A stretch of DNA of 64,000 nt from Escherichia phage P479. The stretch lies in sequence record MW269952.1. One strand, written 5' to 3'. The notes below the pieces were generated by a model. That model saw only the letters and a program-made list of their open reading frames with translations. It was not told the DNA's origin and searched no databases. This document shows, piece after piece, positions 3,233 through 9,351 of the stretch. A program made the position numbers and the translations under genes. The stretch's first letter is position 1. Every line of letters starts with the position of its first letter.

Positions 3233-3287
3233 TGCTTCAAACGGTGCGTGTTATTATTAATACATGACCAAACAACATGGATTAAAT

Positions 3288-3611
3288 ATGGAATTACCAA
3301 TTAAAGCAGTAGGTGAATATATTATTTTGGTTTCTGAGCCAAAGCAAGCTGGTGATGAAGAAACTACGGCATCAGGTATCGTTATCGGAAAACTCCATCA
3401 GGGTGAAATCCCAGAGATGTGCGAAGTATTTTCGGTTGGTCCGGATGTTCCCGAAGGTTTCTGTGAAGTGGGTGATTTGACTCCTCTTCCGGTTGGCAAG
3501 ATTGCAAACGTTCCACATCCTCTGGTTGCTCTGGGACTTAAGCAGGCTAAAGAAGTTAAGCAGAAATTTGTGACCTGTCATTATAAAGCTGTTCCTTGTC
3601 TTTATAAGTAA
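3288..3611 (+). CDS. 31: co-chaperonin for GroEL (GroES analogue) gp31
   Basis: Translation ...[33 protein letters not shown]...[14 protein letters not shown] matches recalled T4 gp31. Start chosen at the internal ATG (MELPIK); the ORF-track start 3264 is the alternative. Confidence 0.8.
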
Positions 3612-3768
3612 AATTAGCGTTATAAATAATAATATGGATTGGCTGCCGGACCAGTTAGTTAACCGGAGAATCCTAAACGGTGGACTACAACTGAGAGACT
3701 TGCCGAAAGGAAGTGAAATTCAGAAGAACGTGTCCACCAAATATTCACCTCATATTGAGGCTTCTAAA

Positions 3769-4023
3769 ATGTCTTTAAACAAACAATTACAACACGCTCT
3801 TGAACTGCAACGCACTGCATGGAATAACGGTCACGAAAACTACGGCGCATCTATTGATGTTGAAGCCGAAGCACTGGAAATTCTGCAGTATTTCAAACAT
3901 CTTAACCCGATTCAAACCGACCTTCGTGCAGTGCTCGAAGCAAAAGATGAACTGAAATTTGCTAAGCCACTGGCATCTGCTGCCCGTAAAGCTGTTCGCC
4001 ATTTTGTCGTAACTCTGAAGTAA
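3769..4023 (+). CDS. rIII: rIII lysis-inhibition accessory protein
   Basis: About 84 aa from the internal ATG; position immediately downstream of gene 31 as in T4. Assignment by synteny and size. Confidence 0.5.
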   Translation: MSLNKQLQHALELQRTAWNNGHENYGASIDVEAEALEILQYFKHLNPIQTDLRAVLEAKDELKFAKPLASAARKAVRHFVVTLK

Positions 4024-4422
4024 TTTATTGGAGATTCACTGCCTTAGTGTGAGCTAAAATCGAGGAGCCGTCGAATTGTCTGATTAATGATTTGCGAATC
4101 ATTATAGTTTTAAGACCTCGGCAATTTTATGGTGTACCTCTTGAATGTTATTCTTATAGCGGCAAGTGCATGCTACCCCGAGGTGATGGCCAATCGGGAG
4201 TACGCCTCAAGGCCTATATATCCATCAGTATATATCTTATCCTCGAGAAATCGAACCCGGAACCTTTAAGCTAACGGTGTGCAACAGATAAGAGCTATAA
4301 GGTATGATGACGAGGTTTATGGTTATCCTGTCGTAAAATATCCGAAACCTAATGTTCCCTTCGAGGGCTTGCGCAGGCAATGTCAATAAGTCCTGCATTC
4401 TATTTTAAAGAGAATTTAATAT

Positions 4423-4581
4423 GGCTAAGAAAGAAGTTAAAGTTGTTGATGGCTCCTCCAAACGCGCTGGTTACAAGCGTGCGTCCAACAAGCGAATCAA
4501 TCAGGTGACTGATAAACTTCAGGCTCGTGCTCGTGCGGTATTGCGTGCCGATGCAGCTTGCTTTGGTAAGCCGAAAGCATA
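4423..4581 (+). CDS. small basic protein, 52 aa
   Basis: ATG at 4423 with upstream agag; MAKKEVKVVDGSSKRAGYKRASNKRINQVTDKLQARARAVLRADAACFGKPKA; followed directly by a terminator. Below the ORF-track size cutoff. Confidence 0.4.
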
Positions 4582-4587
4582 AGTTCA

Positions 4588-4615
4588 GGGACTCTTCGGA
4601 GTCCCTTTTTTATTT
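4588..4615 (+). terminator. rho-independent terminator
   Basis: ggactc-ttcg-gagtcc hairpin followed by a T-run (ttttttatttt). Confidence 0.7.
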
Positions 4616-4626
4616 TCCATAAAGGG

Positions 4627-4656
4627 GTTTACAACAGGGTTTGACCAGTACATAAT
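4627..4656 (+). promoter_or_regulatory. T4-type early promoter (GTTTAC, 18 nt, CATAAT) with conserved leader gattccatactgagtta
   Basis: gtttac 4627-4632, cataat 4651-4656; a near-identical cassette lies at 27629-27699. Confidence 0.55.
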
Positions 4657-4697: not shown

Positions 4698-5066
4698 ATG
4701 AAAATCAATCTTAACTCATACATCAAAGGTAAAGACCACGACGGGTACAAAGCCATTGAAACTAAAGAAATGCAATGGCACTTGTATAAAGAACAATTTG
4801 AATTTGTTGGTTGCATGACTCCAGAAGGTCCTTCTGATGACTTCTCTTGGAAAATTATGGTAACAAACTTTTTTACTGGTGATACCTACGAACTGAAAAC
4901 TATCGTAACTGGTAAGATTCGTTGTAAGACCTATGAAGATGAAGAAACTGGTTATTCTGAAGATGTTACATGGTATCAAAATGGTCGCACCACTGCAGAC
5001 CTTCTGATTGAAAAAATGAAAGCTAAGGGTGAATTAAATTTAGATAATTGGATTAAAGTCGCATAA
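4698..5066 (+). CDS. hypothetical protein, 122 aa
   Basis: ORF track; RBS ggag upstream. Confidence 0.5.
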   Translation: MKINLNSYIKGKDHDGYKAIETKEMQWHLYKEQFEFVGCMTPEGPSDDFSWKIMVTNFFTGDTYELKTIVTGKIRCKTYEDEETGYSEDVTWYQNGRTTADLLIEKMKAKGELNLDNWIKVA

Positions 5067-7812: not shown

Positions 7813-9351
7813 GTGATTATGATTTTAGATATTTTAAATGAAATTGCTGCAACCGATTCCACTAAAGAGAAACAAGCTATCCTGGAATCGTATTCTGACA
7901 ATGAAACCCTCAAACGTGTGTATCGTTTGACATATTCCAAAGGCATCCAGTTCTATATTAAGAAATGGCCAAAACCTGGGACAACGACTCAAAGCTTTGG
8001 TATGCTGAATATCGATGATATGCTTGACTTTATTGAATTCACATTAGCCTCTCGTAAATTAACAGGTAATGCTGCAATCGAGGAATTATCTGGCTATATT
8101 GCTGATGGTAAAAAAGCAGATGTTGAAGTCCTGCGGCGTGTTATGATGCGTGACCTGGAATGCGGGGCATCCGTATCAATTGCGAATAAGGTTTGGAAAG
8201 GTTTAATTCCTGAACAACCACAGATGCTCGCTTCTTCCTATGATGAAGCCGGTATTGCCAAGAACATTAAGTTCCCGGCCTTTGCGCAATTGAAAGCCGA
8301 CGGCGCTCGGTGTTTTGCAGAAGTTCGTGGCGATGAGTTGGATGATGTTCGATTGCTATCCCGAGCTGGTAACGAATACCTTAAGCTTGACCTCCTTAAA
8401 AAGGAATTGATTGAAGCTACCCGTGAAGCGCGTGAGAGGCATCCTGAGGGCGTTTTGATTGACGGCGAGTTAGTATATCATGAACAGAAAATAGCTCCAC
8501 AGAATGATGGTTTGGGTTTCCTTTTTGACGATTCAGATGAGATTGCTCCTGCAAAAGAAACCGCAGAATCAAGAACATTTTCGAATGGTATGGCAAACAA
8601 ATCATTAAAAGGAACCATTTCTGCAACAGAAGCTTCTTGCATGAAATTCCAGGTTTGGGATTATGTTCCACTGATTGAAGTCTATTCTGATGTTAAGATT
8701 CTCAATCCGTTGAAATACGATGTGCGTTTTGCTGTTCTGGAAAAGATGATTGCAGATAACGTGGTGCTACATGGTTTCGACCGCATGATTCTGATTGAAA
8801 ACCATGTTGTTAACAATCTCGATGAAGCGAAGGTTATCTATAAGAAATATGTGGATGAAGGTCTTGAAGGTATTATCCTTAAGAACATGGCATCGATTTG
8901 GGAAAACAAGCGCTCAAAGAACTTGTACAAGTTCAAAGAAGTAATTGACATTGCAATGGAAATCATTGGATATTACGAGCACGATAAAGACCCGAATAAG
9001 ATTGGCGGTGTTGTGCTTCGTTCTTCTTGTGGTAAGATTACAAATAACTGTGGTTCTGGTTTTAAAGACACAACTCAAGTTAAAGATAAGAAAACCAAAA
9101 AATGGGTTACTATTCCGATTGAGGAGCGTCATGAAATGGACCGTGAAGCCTTGATGGTTAAAGCCCGTAAAGGTGAATTGGTTGGAATGATTGCCGACTG
9201 TGAATGTAATGGTTGGTTGACTTCCGAGACTCGTAAAGATAATACGGTTGCATTGTTCCTGCCGATTATCAAAGGGTTCCGTTTCGATAAAGACCATGCA
9301 GACACATTCGAAGATGTATTTGGCGACTGGTCAAAGACCGGGTTAAAATAA
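7813..9351 (+). CDS. 30: ATP-dependent DNA ligase gp30
   Basis: 512 aa; N-terminus MILDILNEIAATDSTKEKQAILESY... matches recalled T4 ligase; adenylation motif KADG (AQLKADGAR) present. Confidence 0.9.
   Translation: MIMILDILNEIAATDSTKEKQAILESYSDNETLKRVYRLTYSKGIQFYIKKWPKPGTTTQSFGMLNIDDMLDFIEFTLASRKLTGNAAIEELSGYIADGKKADVEVLRRVMMRDLECGASVSIANKVWKGLIPEQPQMLASSYDEAGIAKNIKFPAFAQLKADGARCFAEVRGDELDDVRLLSRAGNEYLKLDLLKKELIEATREARERHPEGVLIDGELVYHEQKIAPQNDGLGFLFDDSDEIAPAKETAESRTFSNGMANKSLKGTISATEASCMKFQVWDYVPLIEVYSDVKILNPLKYDVRFAVLEKMIADNVVLHGFDRMILIENHVVNNLDEAKVIYKKYVDEGLEGIILKNMASIWENKRSKNLYKFKEVIDIAMEIIGYYEHDKDPNKIGGVVLRSSCGKITNNCGSGFKDTTQVKDKKTKKWVTIPIEERHEMDREALMVKARKGELVGMIADCECNGWLTSETRKDNTVALFLPIIKGFRFDKDHADTFEDVFGDWSKTGLK

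What the first reader, a model, noticed from the sequence alone, without database searches (positions are those of the whole stretch)
4024..4422. About 400-bp ORF-poor, structured-looking stretch between rIII and the next early gene
Seen: no convincing ORF. The 60-aa track ORF at 4092-4274 has no RBS and odd composition. Several inverted repeats are present (for example cctcgg at 4125-4130 with ccgagg at 4189-4194, and ccctcgaagg-like elements near 4355-4366). The region ends in a small basic 52-aa ORF and a strong terminator. Inference: possible small RNA gene, a decayed gene remnant, or a regulatory region. I could not fit a tRNA cloverleaf.
Basis: seen in the sequence. Interest (0 to 1): 0.4.

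Follow-up and report, generated by a model that had tools for sequence, protein, structure and literature searches.

The report
Unannotated folded RNA modules after rIII
The gap between the lysis-inhibition gene rIII and the small gene 30.9 of this T4-like phage is neither junk nor a dead gene: it is a string of conserved folded RNA modules, including a 151-base four-armed RNA found in about 400 phage genomes, matching no Rfam family and of unknown function.

Summary
The ORF-poor gap is real (window 4024-4420, between rIII and gene 30.9 of a T4-like phage close to Shigella phage SP18). It is not a tRNA, not a match to any Rfam family, and not a decayed gene. Comparison with about 60 related loci shows a mosaic of self-contained RNA modules whose order and presence vary between phages.

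The main module, B (4152-4302, + strand), is a perfect four-way junction closed by its own 9-bp stem, with a 6-bp kissing loop between two arms and a GAAA-capped hairpin. On 22 distinct variants, 98.6% of pair cells are paired and 21 of 42 pairs changed on both sides. Slid controls give 30-42% and 3-5. No reading frame is open in all variants. B is 92-95% identical across phages whose flanking genes are 70-83% identical. It occurs once per genome, always in this spacer, in about 400 phage records, and is absent from T4-type RB32, RB69 and the host collections searched.

The other modules are an H-type pseudoknot found in every relative examined (C1, 4309-4354), a 92-nt extended hairpin (A2) and several smaller hairpins.

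The structure is well supported. The function is inferred: most likely an autonomous protein- or ligand-binding RNA domain carried on the rIII-30.9 transcript.

The parts
3769..4023 (+). Gene rIII, with the probable true start at 3769 (84 aa). The mechanical ORF starts at 3634.
   Evidence: ORF. (tblastn: 1116 phage records, annotated as rIII lysis inhibition accessory protein). (synteny cd-31.1-31-rIII-30.9-30.8).
4028..4056 (+). Module A1: a small hairpin (stem 4036-4039 with 4049-4052) with a conserved loop, followed by GCUAAAA.
   Evidence: three inner pairs are always paired in 11 variants and two of them changed on both sides (CG/AU/UA and GC/AU). 90.9% of cells are paired against 16-70% in slid controls. 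In Klebsiella phages this module sits directly upstream of B instead.
4057..4148 (+). Module A2: a 92-nt extended hairpin. Helices are 4062-4065/4137-4140, 4067-4071/4129-4133 and 4073-4080/4120-4127, with an apical hairpin 4085-4092/4097-4104 and loop UGCG.
   Evidence: RNAalifold on 12 variants: 25 pairs, 5 with changes on both sides, e.g. AAUUG/CAAUU versus AACUG/CAGUU, and GCCGU/ACGGU versus GCCAU/AUGGU; z = -2.0 on the + strand and -0.8 on the - strand. Shared with RB69.
4152..4302 (+). Module B: a 151-nt closed four-way-junction RNA.
- P0: 4152-4160/4294-4302.
- Arm I: helix g 4161-4163/4212-4214, a conserved 8x6 internal loop, helix b 4172-4176/4200-4205, and helix a 4177-4181/4194-4198.
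- Arm II: helix d 4215-4221/4228-4234.
- Arm III: P1 4235-4241/4287-4293, enclosing hairpin e 4243-4246/4251-4254 (loop GAAA 4247-4250) and helix f 4255-4259/4275-4280.
- Kissing loop: 4184-4189 (UGAUGG) with 4222-4227 (CCAUCA).
   Evidence: 98.6% of cells paired, 21/42 pairs changed on both sides, 0/500 shuffles reach this, slid controls 30-42%. RNAalifold finds the same nested helices on its own. P0 is paired in 88-100% of 26 distinct flank pairs over its first 5 bp, with 3-4 pair types per position; a covariance model scores 168 bits (E about 1e-36) and finds one copy in the window; no open frame; 98.6% of cells paired when read on the + strand, 95.0% on the - strand.
4309..4354 (+). Module C1: a candidate H-type pseudoknot. 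Stem S1 is 4309-4311/4330-4332 plus 4313-4315/4327-4329. Stem S2 is 4316-4324 with 4346-4354. The conserved loops are GGUUAUCC and CGU(U/A)AAAUAUCC.
   Evidence: the outer S1 pairs are never broken in 32 variants (UA 18/AU 13/GC 1 and CG 21/GC 7/UA 4). S2 pair 23-52 is GC 23/AU 9 with no mismatch. Overall 79% of cells are paired against 31-48% in slid controls; every lineage keeps 5-12 complementary bases in S2 with different sequences; present in all 38 variants, including T4-type RB32; one copy in the window (74.7 bits).
4357..4367 (+). Module C2a: a short G+C hairpin, cccttcgaggg, followed by the conserved CUUG.
Evidence: a CCC..GGG hairpin with loops of 3-5 nt recurs in almost all relatives. 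In some it sits directly after the rIII stop codon.
4373..4396 (+). Module C2b: a stem-loop, GCAGG 4373-4377 with CCUGC 4392-4396, and a conserved 14-nt loop.
   Evidence: a stem is kept at the same position with different sequences, namely CAGG/CCUG (window), CUGG/CCAG (L161), GGGAGC/GCUCCC (Klebsiella phages), GGGAAC/GUUCCC (L152) and GGCGA/UCGCC (L169). Read by eye from those outputs; not counted formally.
4397..4415 (+). A weak hairpin, AUUCU 4397-4401 with AGAAU 4411-4415, overlapping the purine-rich Shine-Dalgarno region of gene 30.9.
   Evidence: -0.7 kcal/mol here. Most relatives have UUCUCC..GGAAGA at the same place (-2 to -6 kcal/mol). The sequence is conserved but there is little covariation, so this part carries little weight.
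4421..4582 (+). Gene 30.9: a 53-aa basic protein of unknown function.
   Evidence: annotated gp30.9 in RB69 and RB32; phrog_1427, unknown function; no Pfam family. AlphaFold2 predicts one long helix (residues 12-48, pLDDT 80); no solved relative.
4587..4656 (+). An intrinsic terminator (4587-4606) followed by an early-type promoter (TTTACA-17-CATAAT, 4628-4656). This ends the rIII-30.9 transcription unit.
   Evidence: The layout matches the PeSL cassette described for T4-type phages (TTTACW-N17-TAYWAT; PMC4122927).

Best explanation
The rIII-30.9 spacer is a noncoding, transcribed array of independently folding RNA modules, read on the + strand as part of the rIII-30.9 transcript.

Shown:
- Module B (4152-4302) is a self-closing four-way-junction RNA.
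- Arm I is interrupted by a conserved internal loop, so it could fold back and let its loop form the 6 base pairs seen with the loop of arm II.
- Arm III is itself a three-way junction carrying a GNRA tetraloop.
- Module C1 (4309-4354) is a pseudoknot present in every relative examined.
- Modules A1, A2 and C2 are further hairpins.
- Modules are swapped, reordered or missing between phages while each keeps its fold.

Inferred:
- B has its own closing stem. Its distance to rIII, to 30.9 and to the other modules varies. Its unpaired nucleotides are nearly invariant across phage genera.
- From this I infer that B works as an autonomous RNA domain, either inside the mRNA or after nuclease trimming at its A+U-rich flanks.
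- Its most likely role is to bind a conserved partner, a host or phage protein or possibly a small molecule. It is less likely to be an aptamer wired to a neighbouring expression platform.
- C1, C2 and the hairpin next to the Shine-Dalgarno site most likely form the structured leader that sets translation or stability of the 30.9 message.
For: Noncoding:
-.

Structure of B:
-. At least five different sequence versions are seen in helix a and in hairpin e, and at least four in the kissing loop: UGAUGG/CCAUCA, CGAUGG/CCAUCG, CUAUGG/CCAUAG, CAAUGA/UCAUUG.

Strand:
- 35 G-U cells would be A-C mismatches on the other strand.
- All neighbouring genes are on the + strand.

Transcription:
- There is no promoter-like or terminator-like site on the + strand inside 4024-4420. 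The unit ends at the terminator at 4587.
- In T4, rIII is served by early, middle and late promoters (PMC9409239).

Constraint:
- B is 92-95% identical where the rIII and 30.9 DNA is 70-83% identical.

Autonomy:
- B follows A2 in the window, follows the rIII stop codon directly in L166, and follows C1+A1 in Klebsiella phages.
- B and a 45-nt hairpin D occupy the same site in two otherwise near-identical loci, L132 and L131.

Distribution:
- One copy per genome, always in this spacer.
- About 400 of 1116 rIII-bearing phage records carry it.
- No true copies in E. coli genomes, plasmids or the bacterial genome collection.

Other modules:
- C1.
- A2.
- A1.
Against: - There is no expression or processing data for any phage that carries B, so a discrete RNA species is not shown.
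- The window sequence alone folds no better than shuffles (z = -0.2).
- Most B copies are more than 90% identical, so covariation rests on about 8-10 divergent lineages. Relatedness inflates the shuffle statistics.
- The kissing loop could equally form between two molecules.
- No binding partner is identified.
- T4-type RB32 and RB69 lack B, so it is dispensable in some backgrounds.
- S2 of C1 is poorly aligned and its energy z-scores are modest (mean -1.0).
Confidence: 0.6

Rival explanations
1. B is a riboswitch-type aptamer, or the whole spacer is one cis-regulatory leader, controlling translation of gene 30.9 in response to a ligand or to the basic 30.9 protein itself.
For: - B has aptamer-like complexity: a four-way junction, a long-range loop-loop contact, and invariant junction nucleotides.
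- It is always upstream of 30.9 in the same orientation.
- The Shine-Dalgarno region of 30.9 sits in a conserved hairpin in most relatives.
- C1 is a pseudoknot in the leader, like the T4 gene 32 operator (PMC3014915).
- gp30.9 is a basic single helix, which is plausible for RNA binding.
Against: - B's closing stem is followed by different modules in different phages: C1 in the window, hairpin h in Klebsiella phages.
- B lies about 130-340 nt from the ATG.
- There is no terminator between B and 30.9, so no coupled expression platform is visible.
- C1 also lies about 90 to 330 nt from the ATG.
- Half of the 30.9-bearing phages lack B.
Confidence: 0.2
2. The modules are passive mRNA processing or stability elements. 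They would act as barriers to RNase E scanning or to 3' exonucleases, or as RNase III/RegB processing sites that separate the rIII and 30.9 messages.
For: - They sit between two cistrons of one transcript.
- The linkers around B are A+U-rich.
- GGAG motifs occur at 4030-4033 and 4064-4067. That these are possible RegB sites is from my own knowledge of T4.
- A2 is a long irregular hairpin.
- Modules are interchangeable.
Against: A simple barrier needs stability, not near-invariant unpaired nucleotides, a covarying kissing loop and a perfect four-way junction. B's predicted stability is ordinary.
Confidence: 0.12
3. B is a self-cleaving ribozyme of a new class that cuts the polycistronic transcript.
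For: B has a compact tertiary fold with an invariant core (GCUAACGGUGUGCAACAGAU, AAGNGCAU). It lies between cistrons.
Against: No match to any Rfam ribozyme family at E<=10. No conserved candidate cleavage site was identified. Nothing here tests catalysis.
Confidence: 0.05
4. B is a selfish mobile DNA element (MITE-like, with terminal inverted repeats), or the repeats act at the DNA level, or the stretch is a decayed or small protein gene.
For: - The ends of B are inverted repeats (4152-4160/4294-4302).
- Its distribution among related phages is patchy.
- Some public records annotate short ORFs over it.
Against: - One copy per genome, always at the same locus.
- The terminal repeats covary instead of being conserved.
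- G-U pairs favour one strand.
- The loop-loop covariation has no DNA-level rationale.
- No frame is open across all variants and there are no protein-family hits.
Confidence: 0.03

Closest known systems
Four-way-junction riboswitch aptamers (SAM-I, cobalamin)
   Same: About 100-150 nt, a closing helix, a four-way junction, one arm bent at a conserved internal loop so that its loop makes a long-range pairing, and invariant junction nucleotides. There are even similar words (CUUAUC...GAUAAG; CCCGG.AACC; GGUG.). This comparison is from my own knowledge of the SAM-I consensus.
   Different: No Rfam hit at E<=10. In B the CUUAUC/GAUAAG helix closes only a three-way sub-domain. The long-range contact is loop-loop. 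No adjacent expression platform is present. Ligand unknown.
T4 gene 32 mRNA pseudoknot operator
   Same: Like C1, it is an H-type pseudoknot in the leader of a T4-type phage gene, next to A+U-rich UUAAA-type sequence (PMC3014915).
   Different: The gene and the sequence differ. The distance from C1 to the 30.9 start codon varies from about 90 to about 330 nt. Binding by gp30.9 or any other protein is untested.
phi29 pRNA
   Same: A phage-encoded structured RNA of about 120-170 nt in which two loops are complementary and covary among relatives (own knowledge).
   Different: pRNA loops pair between molecules to build a ring on the packaging motor. T4-type packaging needs no RNA. The two RNAs share no sequence or context.
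Orphan ornate RNAs often found in phages (ROOL, GOLLD)
   Same: Complex, covariation-supported folds with kissing loops, carried by phages, of unknown function (PMC12286853, listed).
   Different: Those are 500-800 nt, lie near tRNA genes, are in Rfam and form homo-oligomeric cages. B is 151 nt and matches none of them.
PeSL cassettes of T4-type genomes
   Same: Short noncoding cassettes that are shuffled between related T4-type phages (PMC2839356, PMC4122927).
   Different: A PeSL is an early promoter plus a simple stem-loop. B, C1 and A2 have no promoter and fold in far more complex ways. The true PeSL-like element here is at 4587-4656.
T4 stable RNAs C and D
   Same: Phage-encoded, stable, structured RNAs of about 120-140 nt with unknown function in T-even phages (own knowledge).
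   Different: Those lie in the tRNA cluster and are processed like tRNAs. No tRNA genes are found anywhere in this window. I could not compare sequences.

Membership tests
tRNA / tmRNA | A canonical cloverleaf with D, anticodon and T arms, detectable by ARAGORN | tested here: not met
   no tRNA or tmRNA gene in the whole window. B is four-armed, but its arms are 7-13 bp or branched.
Any described RNA family (Rfam 15, 4227 models, including riboswitches, ribozymes, group I introns and sRNAs) | A covariance-model match | tested here: not met
   in 3 kb at E<=10, no hit inside 4024-4420; in 431 nt with lax filters, 0 hits.
Riboswitch | A conserved aptamer with tertiary structure | tested here: met
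Riboswitch | An expression platform (terminator or Shine-Dalgarno sequestering helix) directly coupled to the aptamer's closing helix | tested here: not met
   no terminator before 4587; what follows B differs between phages. B lies about 130-340 nt from the 30.9 ATG.
Riboswitch | Specific ligand binding | not testable with these tools
   Needs in-line probing or ITC.
Pseudoknot translational operator (T4 gene 32 type) | Two stems in H-type topology, kept by compensatory change | tested here: met
   S1 outer pairs are 100% paired with 3 pair types each, and one S2 pair is GC 23/AU 9. S2 complementarity is kept with different sequences. The outer part of S2 is weakened by alignment register.
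Pseudoknot translational operator (T4 gene 32 type) | A fixed position next to the ribosome-binding site, and binding by the regulated gene's product | tested here: inconclusive
   Position varies from about 90 to about 330 nt. Protein binding is not testable here.
PeSL cassette | An early sigma-70-type promoter joined to a stem-loop | tested here: not met
   no + strand promoter-like site inside 4024-4420. The feature is met only by 4587-4656.
Protein-coding gene or gene remnant | A reading frame kept among relatives, codon-position bias in substitutions, or a family match | tested here: not met
   stop codons in all three frames, variable positions 27/25/21; no family.
MITE or other transposable element | Conserved terminal repeats, several dispersed copies, and target-site duplications | tested here: not met
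   a single copy at one locus; the terminal repeats covary.
Self-cleaving ribozyme | Site-specific self-cleavage | not testable with these tools
   No known ribozyme family matches. Catalysis needs an in vitro assay.

The most novel reading that the evidence does not exclude
Module B is the first member of a new class of phage-encoded, autonomously folding RNA. It is a 151-nt four-way junction locked by a kissing loop, and it acts in trans on a conserved host or phage factor, for example as a decoy against a host defence or RNA-processing protein, or as a small-molecule sensor. It is exchanged between T4-like phages as an RNA cassette in the way accessory protein genes are. On this reading the rIII-30.9 spacer is a hyperplastic region built from RNA modules rather than ORFs.
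Probability: 0.3. Interest if true: 0.85.

Novelty: new variant of a known kind. Interest (0 to 1): 0.68.

Why it matters
T4-like phages are among the best-studied viruses and are widely used in phage therapy against Klebsiella, Enterobacter and E. coli. Even so, this RNA is unannotated or mis-annotated as tiny hypothetical proteins in hundreds of deposited genomes. A likely reason is that the T4-type and RB69 genomes examined here lack it.

B is better conserved than the neighbouring protein genes and has tertiary-structure covariation. This points to a specific molecular partner and to a function that matters on natural hosts.

The natural with/without pairs of near-identical genomes (VR26 carries B; VR20, VR25 and VR7 lack it, and VR20 has hairpin D at the site) make the function directly testable. 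The pseudoknot C1 would be a second T4-type leader pseudoknot. A 2010 review called the gene 32 pseudoknot possibly the only viral example used in translational autoregulation.

Tried and rejected
- **tRNA or tmRNA:** none.
- **Rfam:** no hits inside 4024-4420 in two scans at E<=10.
- **Promoter inside the spacer:** none on the + strand. A MotA-box reading of A1 (TTTGCTAC) was considered by eye and dropped because the box is not conserved and A1 covaries as a hairpin.
- **Coding potential:** rejected.
- **Host origin or antisense target:** no similarity in 5,426 E. coli genomes or in plasmids beyond chance 30-mers. The only bacterial-genome pattern hit is a chance match.
- **16-nt degenerate pattern for the C2 hairpin:** the viral-contig scan returned mostly unrelated contigs and was abandoned.
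- **Alternative pairings for B** (by eye from the, 27 sequences):
  - 5' GGCAAG with CUUAUCC, a purine-riboswitch-like P1, fails in L145 and L148.
  - GAGGCG with CGCCUC fails in L148 and L162.
  - A local 3-bp helix in loop a, predicted by RNAalifold, competes with the kissing loop. It has C-A mismatches, while the kissing loop is 100% paired.
- **Extra copies:** a weak model hit at 8155-8251 (E = 0.29) lies inside a 512-aa ORF and is noise.
- **More distant phages:** Morganella MP1, Acinetobacter AM101 and Yersinia MHG19 have no B.
- **gp30.9:** no Pfam family, no solved relative, and a featureless single-helix model.
- **Literature:** seven searches found no description of an RNA element here. 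The large phage RNA-motif screen (PMC10690425) has no held supplement to check.

Full report
**Context.** The window is a T4-like (Tevenvirinae) phage. The closest public genomes are Escherichia virus TH40 (98.1% over 1.1 kb) and Shigella phage SP18 (99.5-99.6%). The local gene order is cd (2116-2697), 31.1, gene 31 (3264-3611), rIII (ends 4023), gene 30.9 (4421-4582), a terminator at 4587-4606, an early-type promoter at 4628-4656, and 30.8 (4698-5066). All are on the + strand. The finding is therefore the rIII-30.9 spacer.

**Observation.**
- The gap is genuinely ORF-poor. ORFs are 60 aa or shorter and have no Pfam or PHROGs match.
- No tRNA is found.
- The folding energy of the window sequence alone is unremarkable (z = -0.2 for 4159-4296). 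The case for structure rests entirely on comparison with relatives.

**Comparative anatomy.**
- BLAST finds this spacer in about 1000 T4-like phage records, but only 179 cover 80% or more of it.
- I aligned the spacers of 39 IMG/VR loci retrieved through gp30.9, plus GenBank loci.
- The spacer is a mosaic of recurring modules:
  - A1 (4028-4056)
  - A2 (4057-4148)
  - B (4152-4302)
  - C1 (4309-4354)
  - C2 (4357-4396)
  - a hairpin next to the Shine-Dalgarno site
- T4-type RB32 has only C1+C2. RB69 has A2+D+C1+C2. The window has A1+A2+B+C1+C2. Citrobacter phage CF1 (L166) has B+C1+C2. Klebsiella phages have X+C1+A1+B+C2.
- In two near-identical loci, L132 and L131, B and a 45-nt hairpin D occupy the same slot.

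**Module B: conservation and distribution.**
- The core of B is 92-95% identical between E. coli and Klebsiella/Enterobacter phages, whose rIII and 30.9 DNA is only 70-83% identical.
- Pattern scans found true copies only in T4-like phage contigs (viral; metagenomic). The single bacterial-genome hit is a chance match.
- E. coli genomes and plasmids have nothing.
- About 400 phage records carry B: Klebsiella 158, Escherichia 129, Enterobacter 27, and also Shigella, Yersinia, Citrobacter, Salmonella, Serratia and Erwinia. This is out of 1116 records with rIII.
- It occurs once per genome, always in this spacer.
- Divergent copies occur in Escherichia phage EcS1, Yersinia phage fHe-Yen9-01, Serratia phage PS2 and Erwinia phage COW86c.
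- It is absent from Morganella MP1, Acinetobacter AM101 and Yersinia MHG19.

**Module B: structure.**
- I read seven helices from the variants and then tested them on a MAFFT alignment of 22 distinct sequences.
  - 98.6% of 921 pair cells are standard pairs.
  - 21 of 42 pairs changed on both sides.
  - 0 of 500 shuffles reach this.
  - Slid controls give 30-42% paired and 3-5 such pairs.
- RNAalifold predicts the same nested helices on its own.
- The 6-bp kissing loop (4184-4189 with 4222-4227) is paired in all 22 sequences, in four sequence versions.
- A scan of all column pairs then revealed that the bases flanking the core pair with each other.
  - On 26 distinct flank pairs, the first five positions are paired in 88-100%, with 3-4 pair types each.
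  - In the window this closing stem, P0, is 9 bp (4152-4160/4294-4302).
- B is therefore a closed four-way junction with no linker nucleotides between P0, arm I, arm II and arm III.
- By my own geometric reasoning, the g+d stack (3+7 bp) and the b+a arm (5+5 bp) are equal in length. A U-turn at the conserved 8x6 internal loop would bring the two loops together within one molecule. An intermolecular kiss is not excluded.
- No reading frame is open in all variants, and variable sites are spread 27/25/21 over codon positions.
- Read on the opposite strand, 35 G-U cells become A-C mismatches: 95.0% paired against 98.6%.

**Other modules.**
- A2 is a 92-nt extended hairpin. RNAalifold predicts 25 pairs, 5 with changes on both sides.
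- A1 is a small hairpin with two covarying pairs.
- C1 occurs in all 38 variants, including the T4 type.
  - Its outer stem S1 is never broken and shows three pair types at two positions.
  - A second stem, S2, joins the S1 loop to sequence downstream of S1, giving H-type pseudoknot topology.
  - S2 keeps complementarity with quite different sequences in different lineages.
  - C1 is single-copy in the window.
- C2 is a short CCC..GGG hairpin plus a stem that keeps its position with varying sequence.
- The pairing at the Shine-Dalgarno site is conserved in sequence but weak.

**Mechanism.**
- Shown:
  - The stretch is noncoding.
  - It lies inside one transcription unit with no internal promoter-like or terminator-like site on the + strand.
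  - It consists of modules whose folds are maintained by selection.
- Inferred:
  - B has its own closing stem, variable neighbours, variable distance to both genes, and near-invariant unpaired nucleotides.
  - It most likely functions as an autonomous domain that binds a conserved partner, within the mRNA or after trimming.
  - A classical riboswitch is less likely because no expression platform is coupled to P0.
  - A passive stability element does not explain the invariant core and the tertiary covariation.
  - C1 and C2 probably shape translation or stability of the 30.9 message. The 30.9 product is a basic single helix of unknown function.
- In T4, rIII is expressed from early, middle and late promoters (PMC9409239). 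If the same holds here, these RNAs would be made throughout infection.

**Comparison with what is known.**
- Nothing in Rfam 15 matches.
- Seven literature searches found no description.
- A 2010 review of T4 post-transcriptional control does not mention rIII or 30.9. It calls the gene 32 pseudoknot possibly the only viral example used in translational autoregulation (PMC3014915).
- B resembles four-way-junction riboswitch aptamers in architecture. It resembles phi29 pRNA in having covarying complementary loops, and ROOL/GOLLD in being an orphan phage-borne ornate RNA. It fails or cannot be given the membership tests for each.
- Module shuffling recalls PeSL cassettes, but these modules lack the promoter that defines a PeSL. 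The real PeSL-like element is the terminator-promoter pair after 30.9.

**Verdict.**
- The 'RNA or regulatory' reading is supported and the 'gene remnant' reading is rejected.
- The structural claim is strong. The functional claim is an inference.
- This is a new RNA class of a known general kind, present in hundreds of deposited genomes, often unannotated and in some records covered by short hypothetical-protein CDSs.

Noticed in passing
window 3621-3768: The mechanical rIII ORF starts at 3634 (129 aa), but relatives align only from the ATG at 3769 (84 aa). A T4 late-promoter-like TATAAATA sits at 3621-3628. The 157-nt gap between gene 31 and rIII may be another noncoding leader, and the in-frame extension is probably accidental.
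   Followed up: partly
window 4587-4656: The terminator hairpin plus TTTACA-17-CATAAT promoter right after gene 30.9 has the layout of a PeSL cassette, as described for T4-type phages (PMC4122927).
   Followed up: partly
L003 1383-1745; L201 896-1030; phage records NC_055831.1 and PQ341120.1: Public records annotate 30-45-aa 'hypothetical proteins' over module B and its neighbours. Two records label this spacer '1,4-alpha-glucan branching enzyme'. Given the covariation and the lack of a conserved frame, these look like mis-annotations.
   Followed up: partly
L147 / L206 1706-1760; L164 1166-1186; L003 1383-1416: Relatives carry further small hairpin modules in the same spacer. They include GUUGCCGGAAGGCAAG, CUGAGAGGUGAAAGUCCUCUCA, UUUGUACGCCCACCAUGUGUACGCAUGGGUAAC, and a long GGGAGC...GCUCCC stem with two CGAAAG motifs. 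Several have GNRA-type loops.
   Followed up: no
L001 1291-1342; L131: Hairpin module D (ACUAUCACGCGUCAGAAAAAGGUUAUCUGUCUAAGUCGUGG) shares GGUUAUCUGUC with C1. It may be a partial duplicate of the pseudoknot. It replaces B at the same site in near-identical genomes.
   Followed up: no
window 4030-4033 and 4064-4067: Two GGAG motifs lie in A1 and A2. GGAG is the target sequence of the T4 RegB endoribonuclease (own knowledge). RIII itself was reported to bind ribosomal protein S1 and inhibit RegB activation (PMC9409239). A possible link to processing of this spacer was not tested.
   Followed up: no
window 8155-8251: A weak hit of the module-B covariance model (12 bits, E = 0.29) lies inside a 512-aa ORF (7813-9351). 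I judged it to be noise.
   Followed up: yes
phage records MG065645.1, MG065689.1, PQ898399.1: Records named Campylobacter phage A145 and A110a match this T4-like region of enterobacterial phages. Enterobacter phage SonariX is a 248-kb 'partial genome' with the same locus. These may be mislabelled or chimeric records.
   Followed up: no
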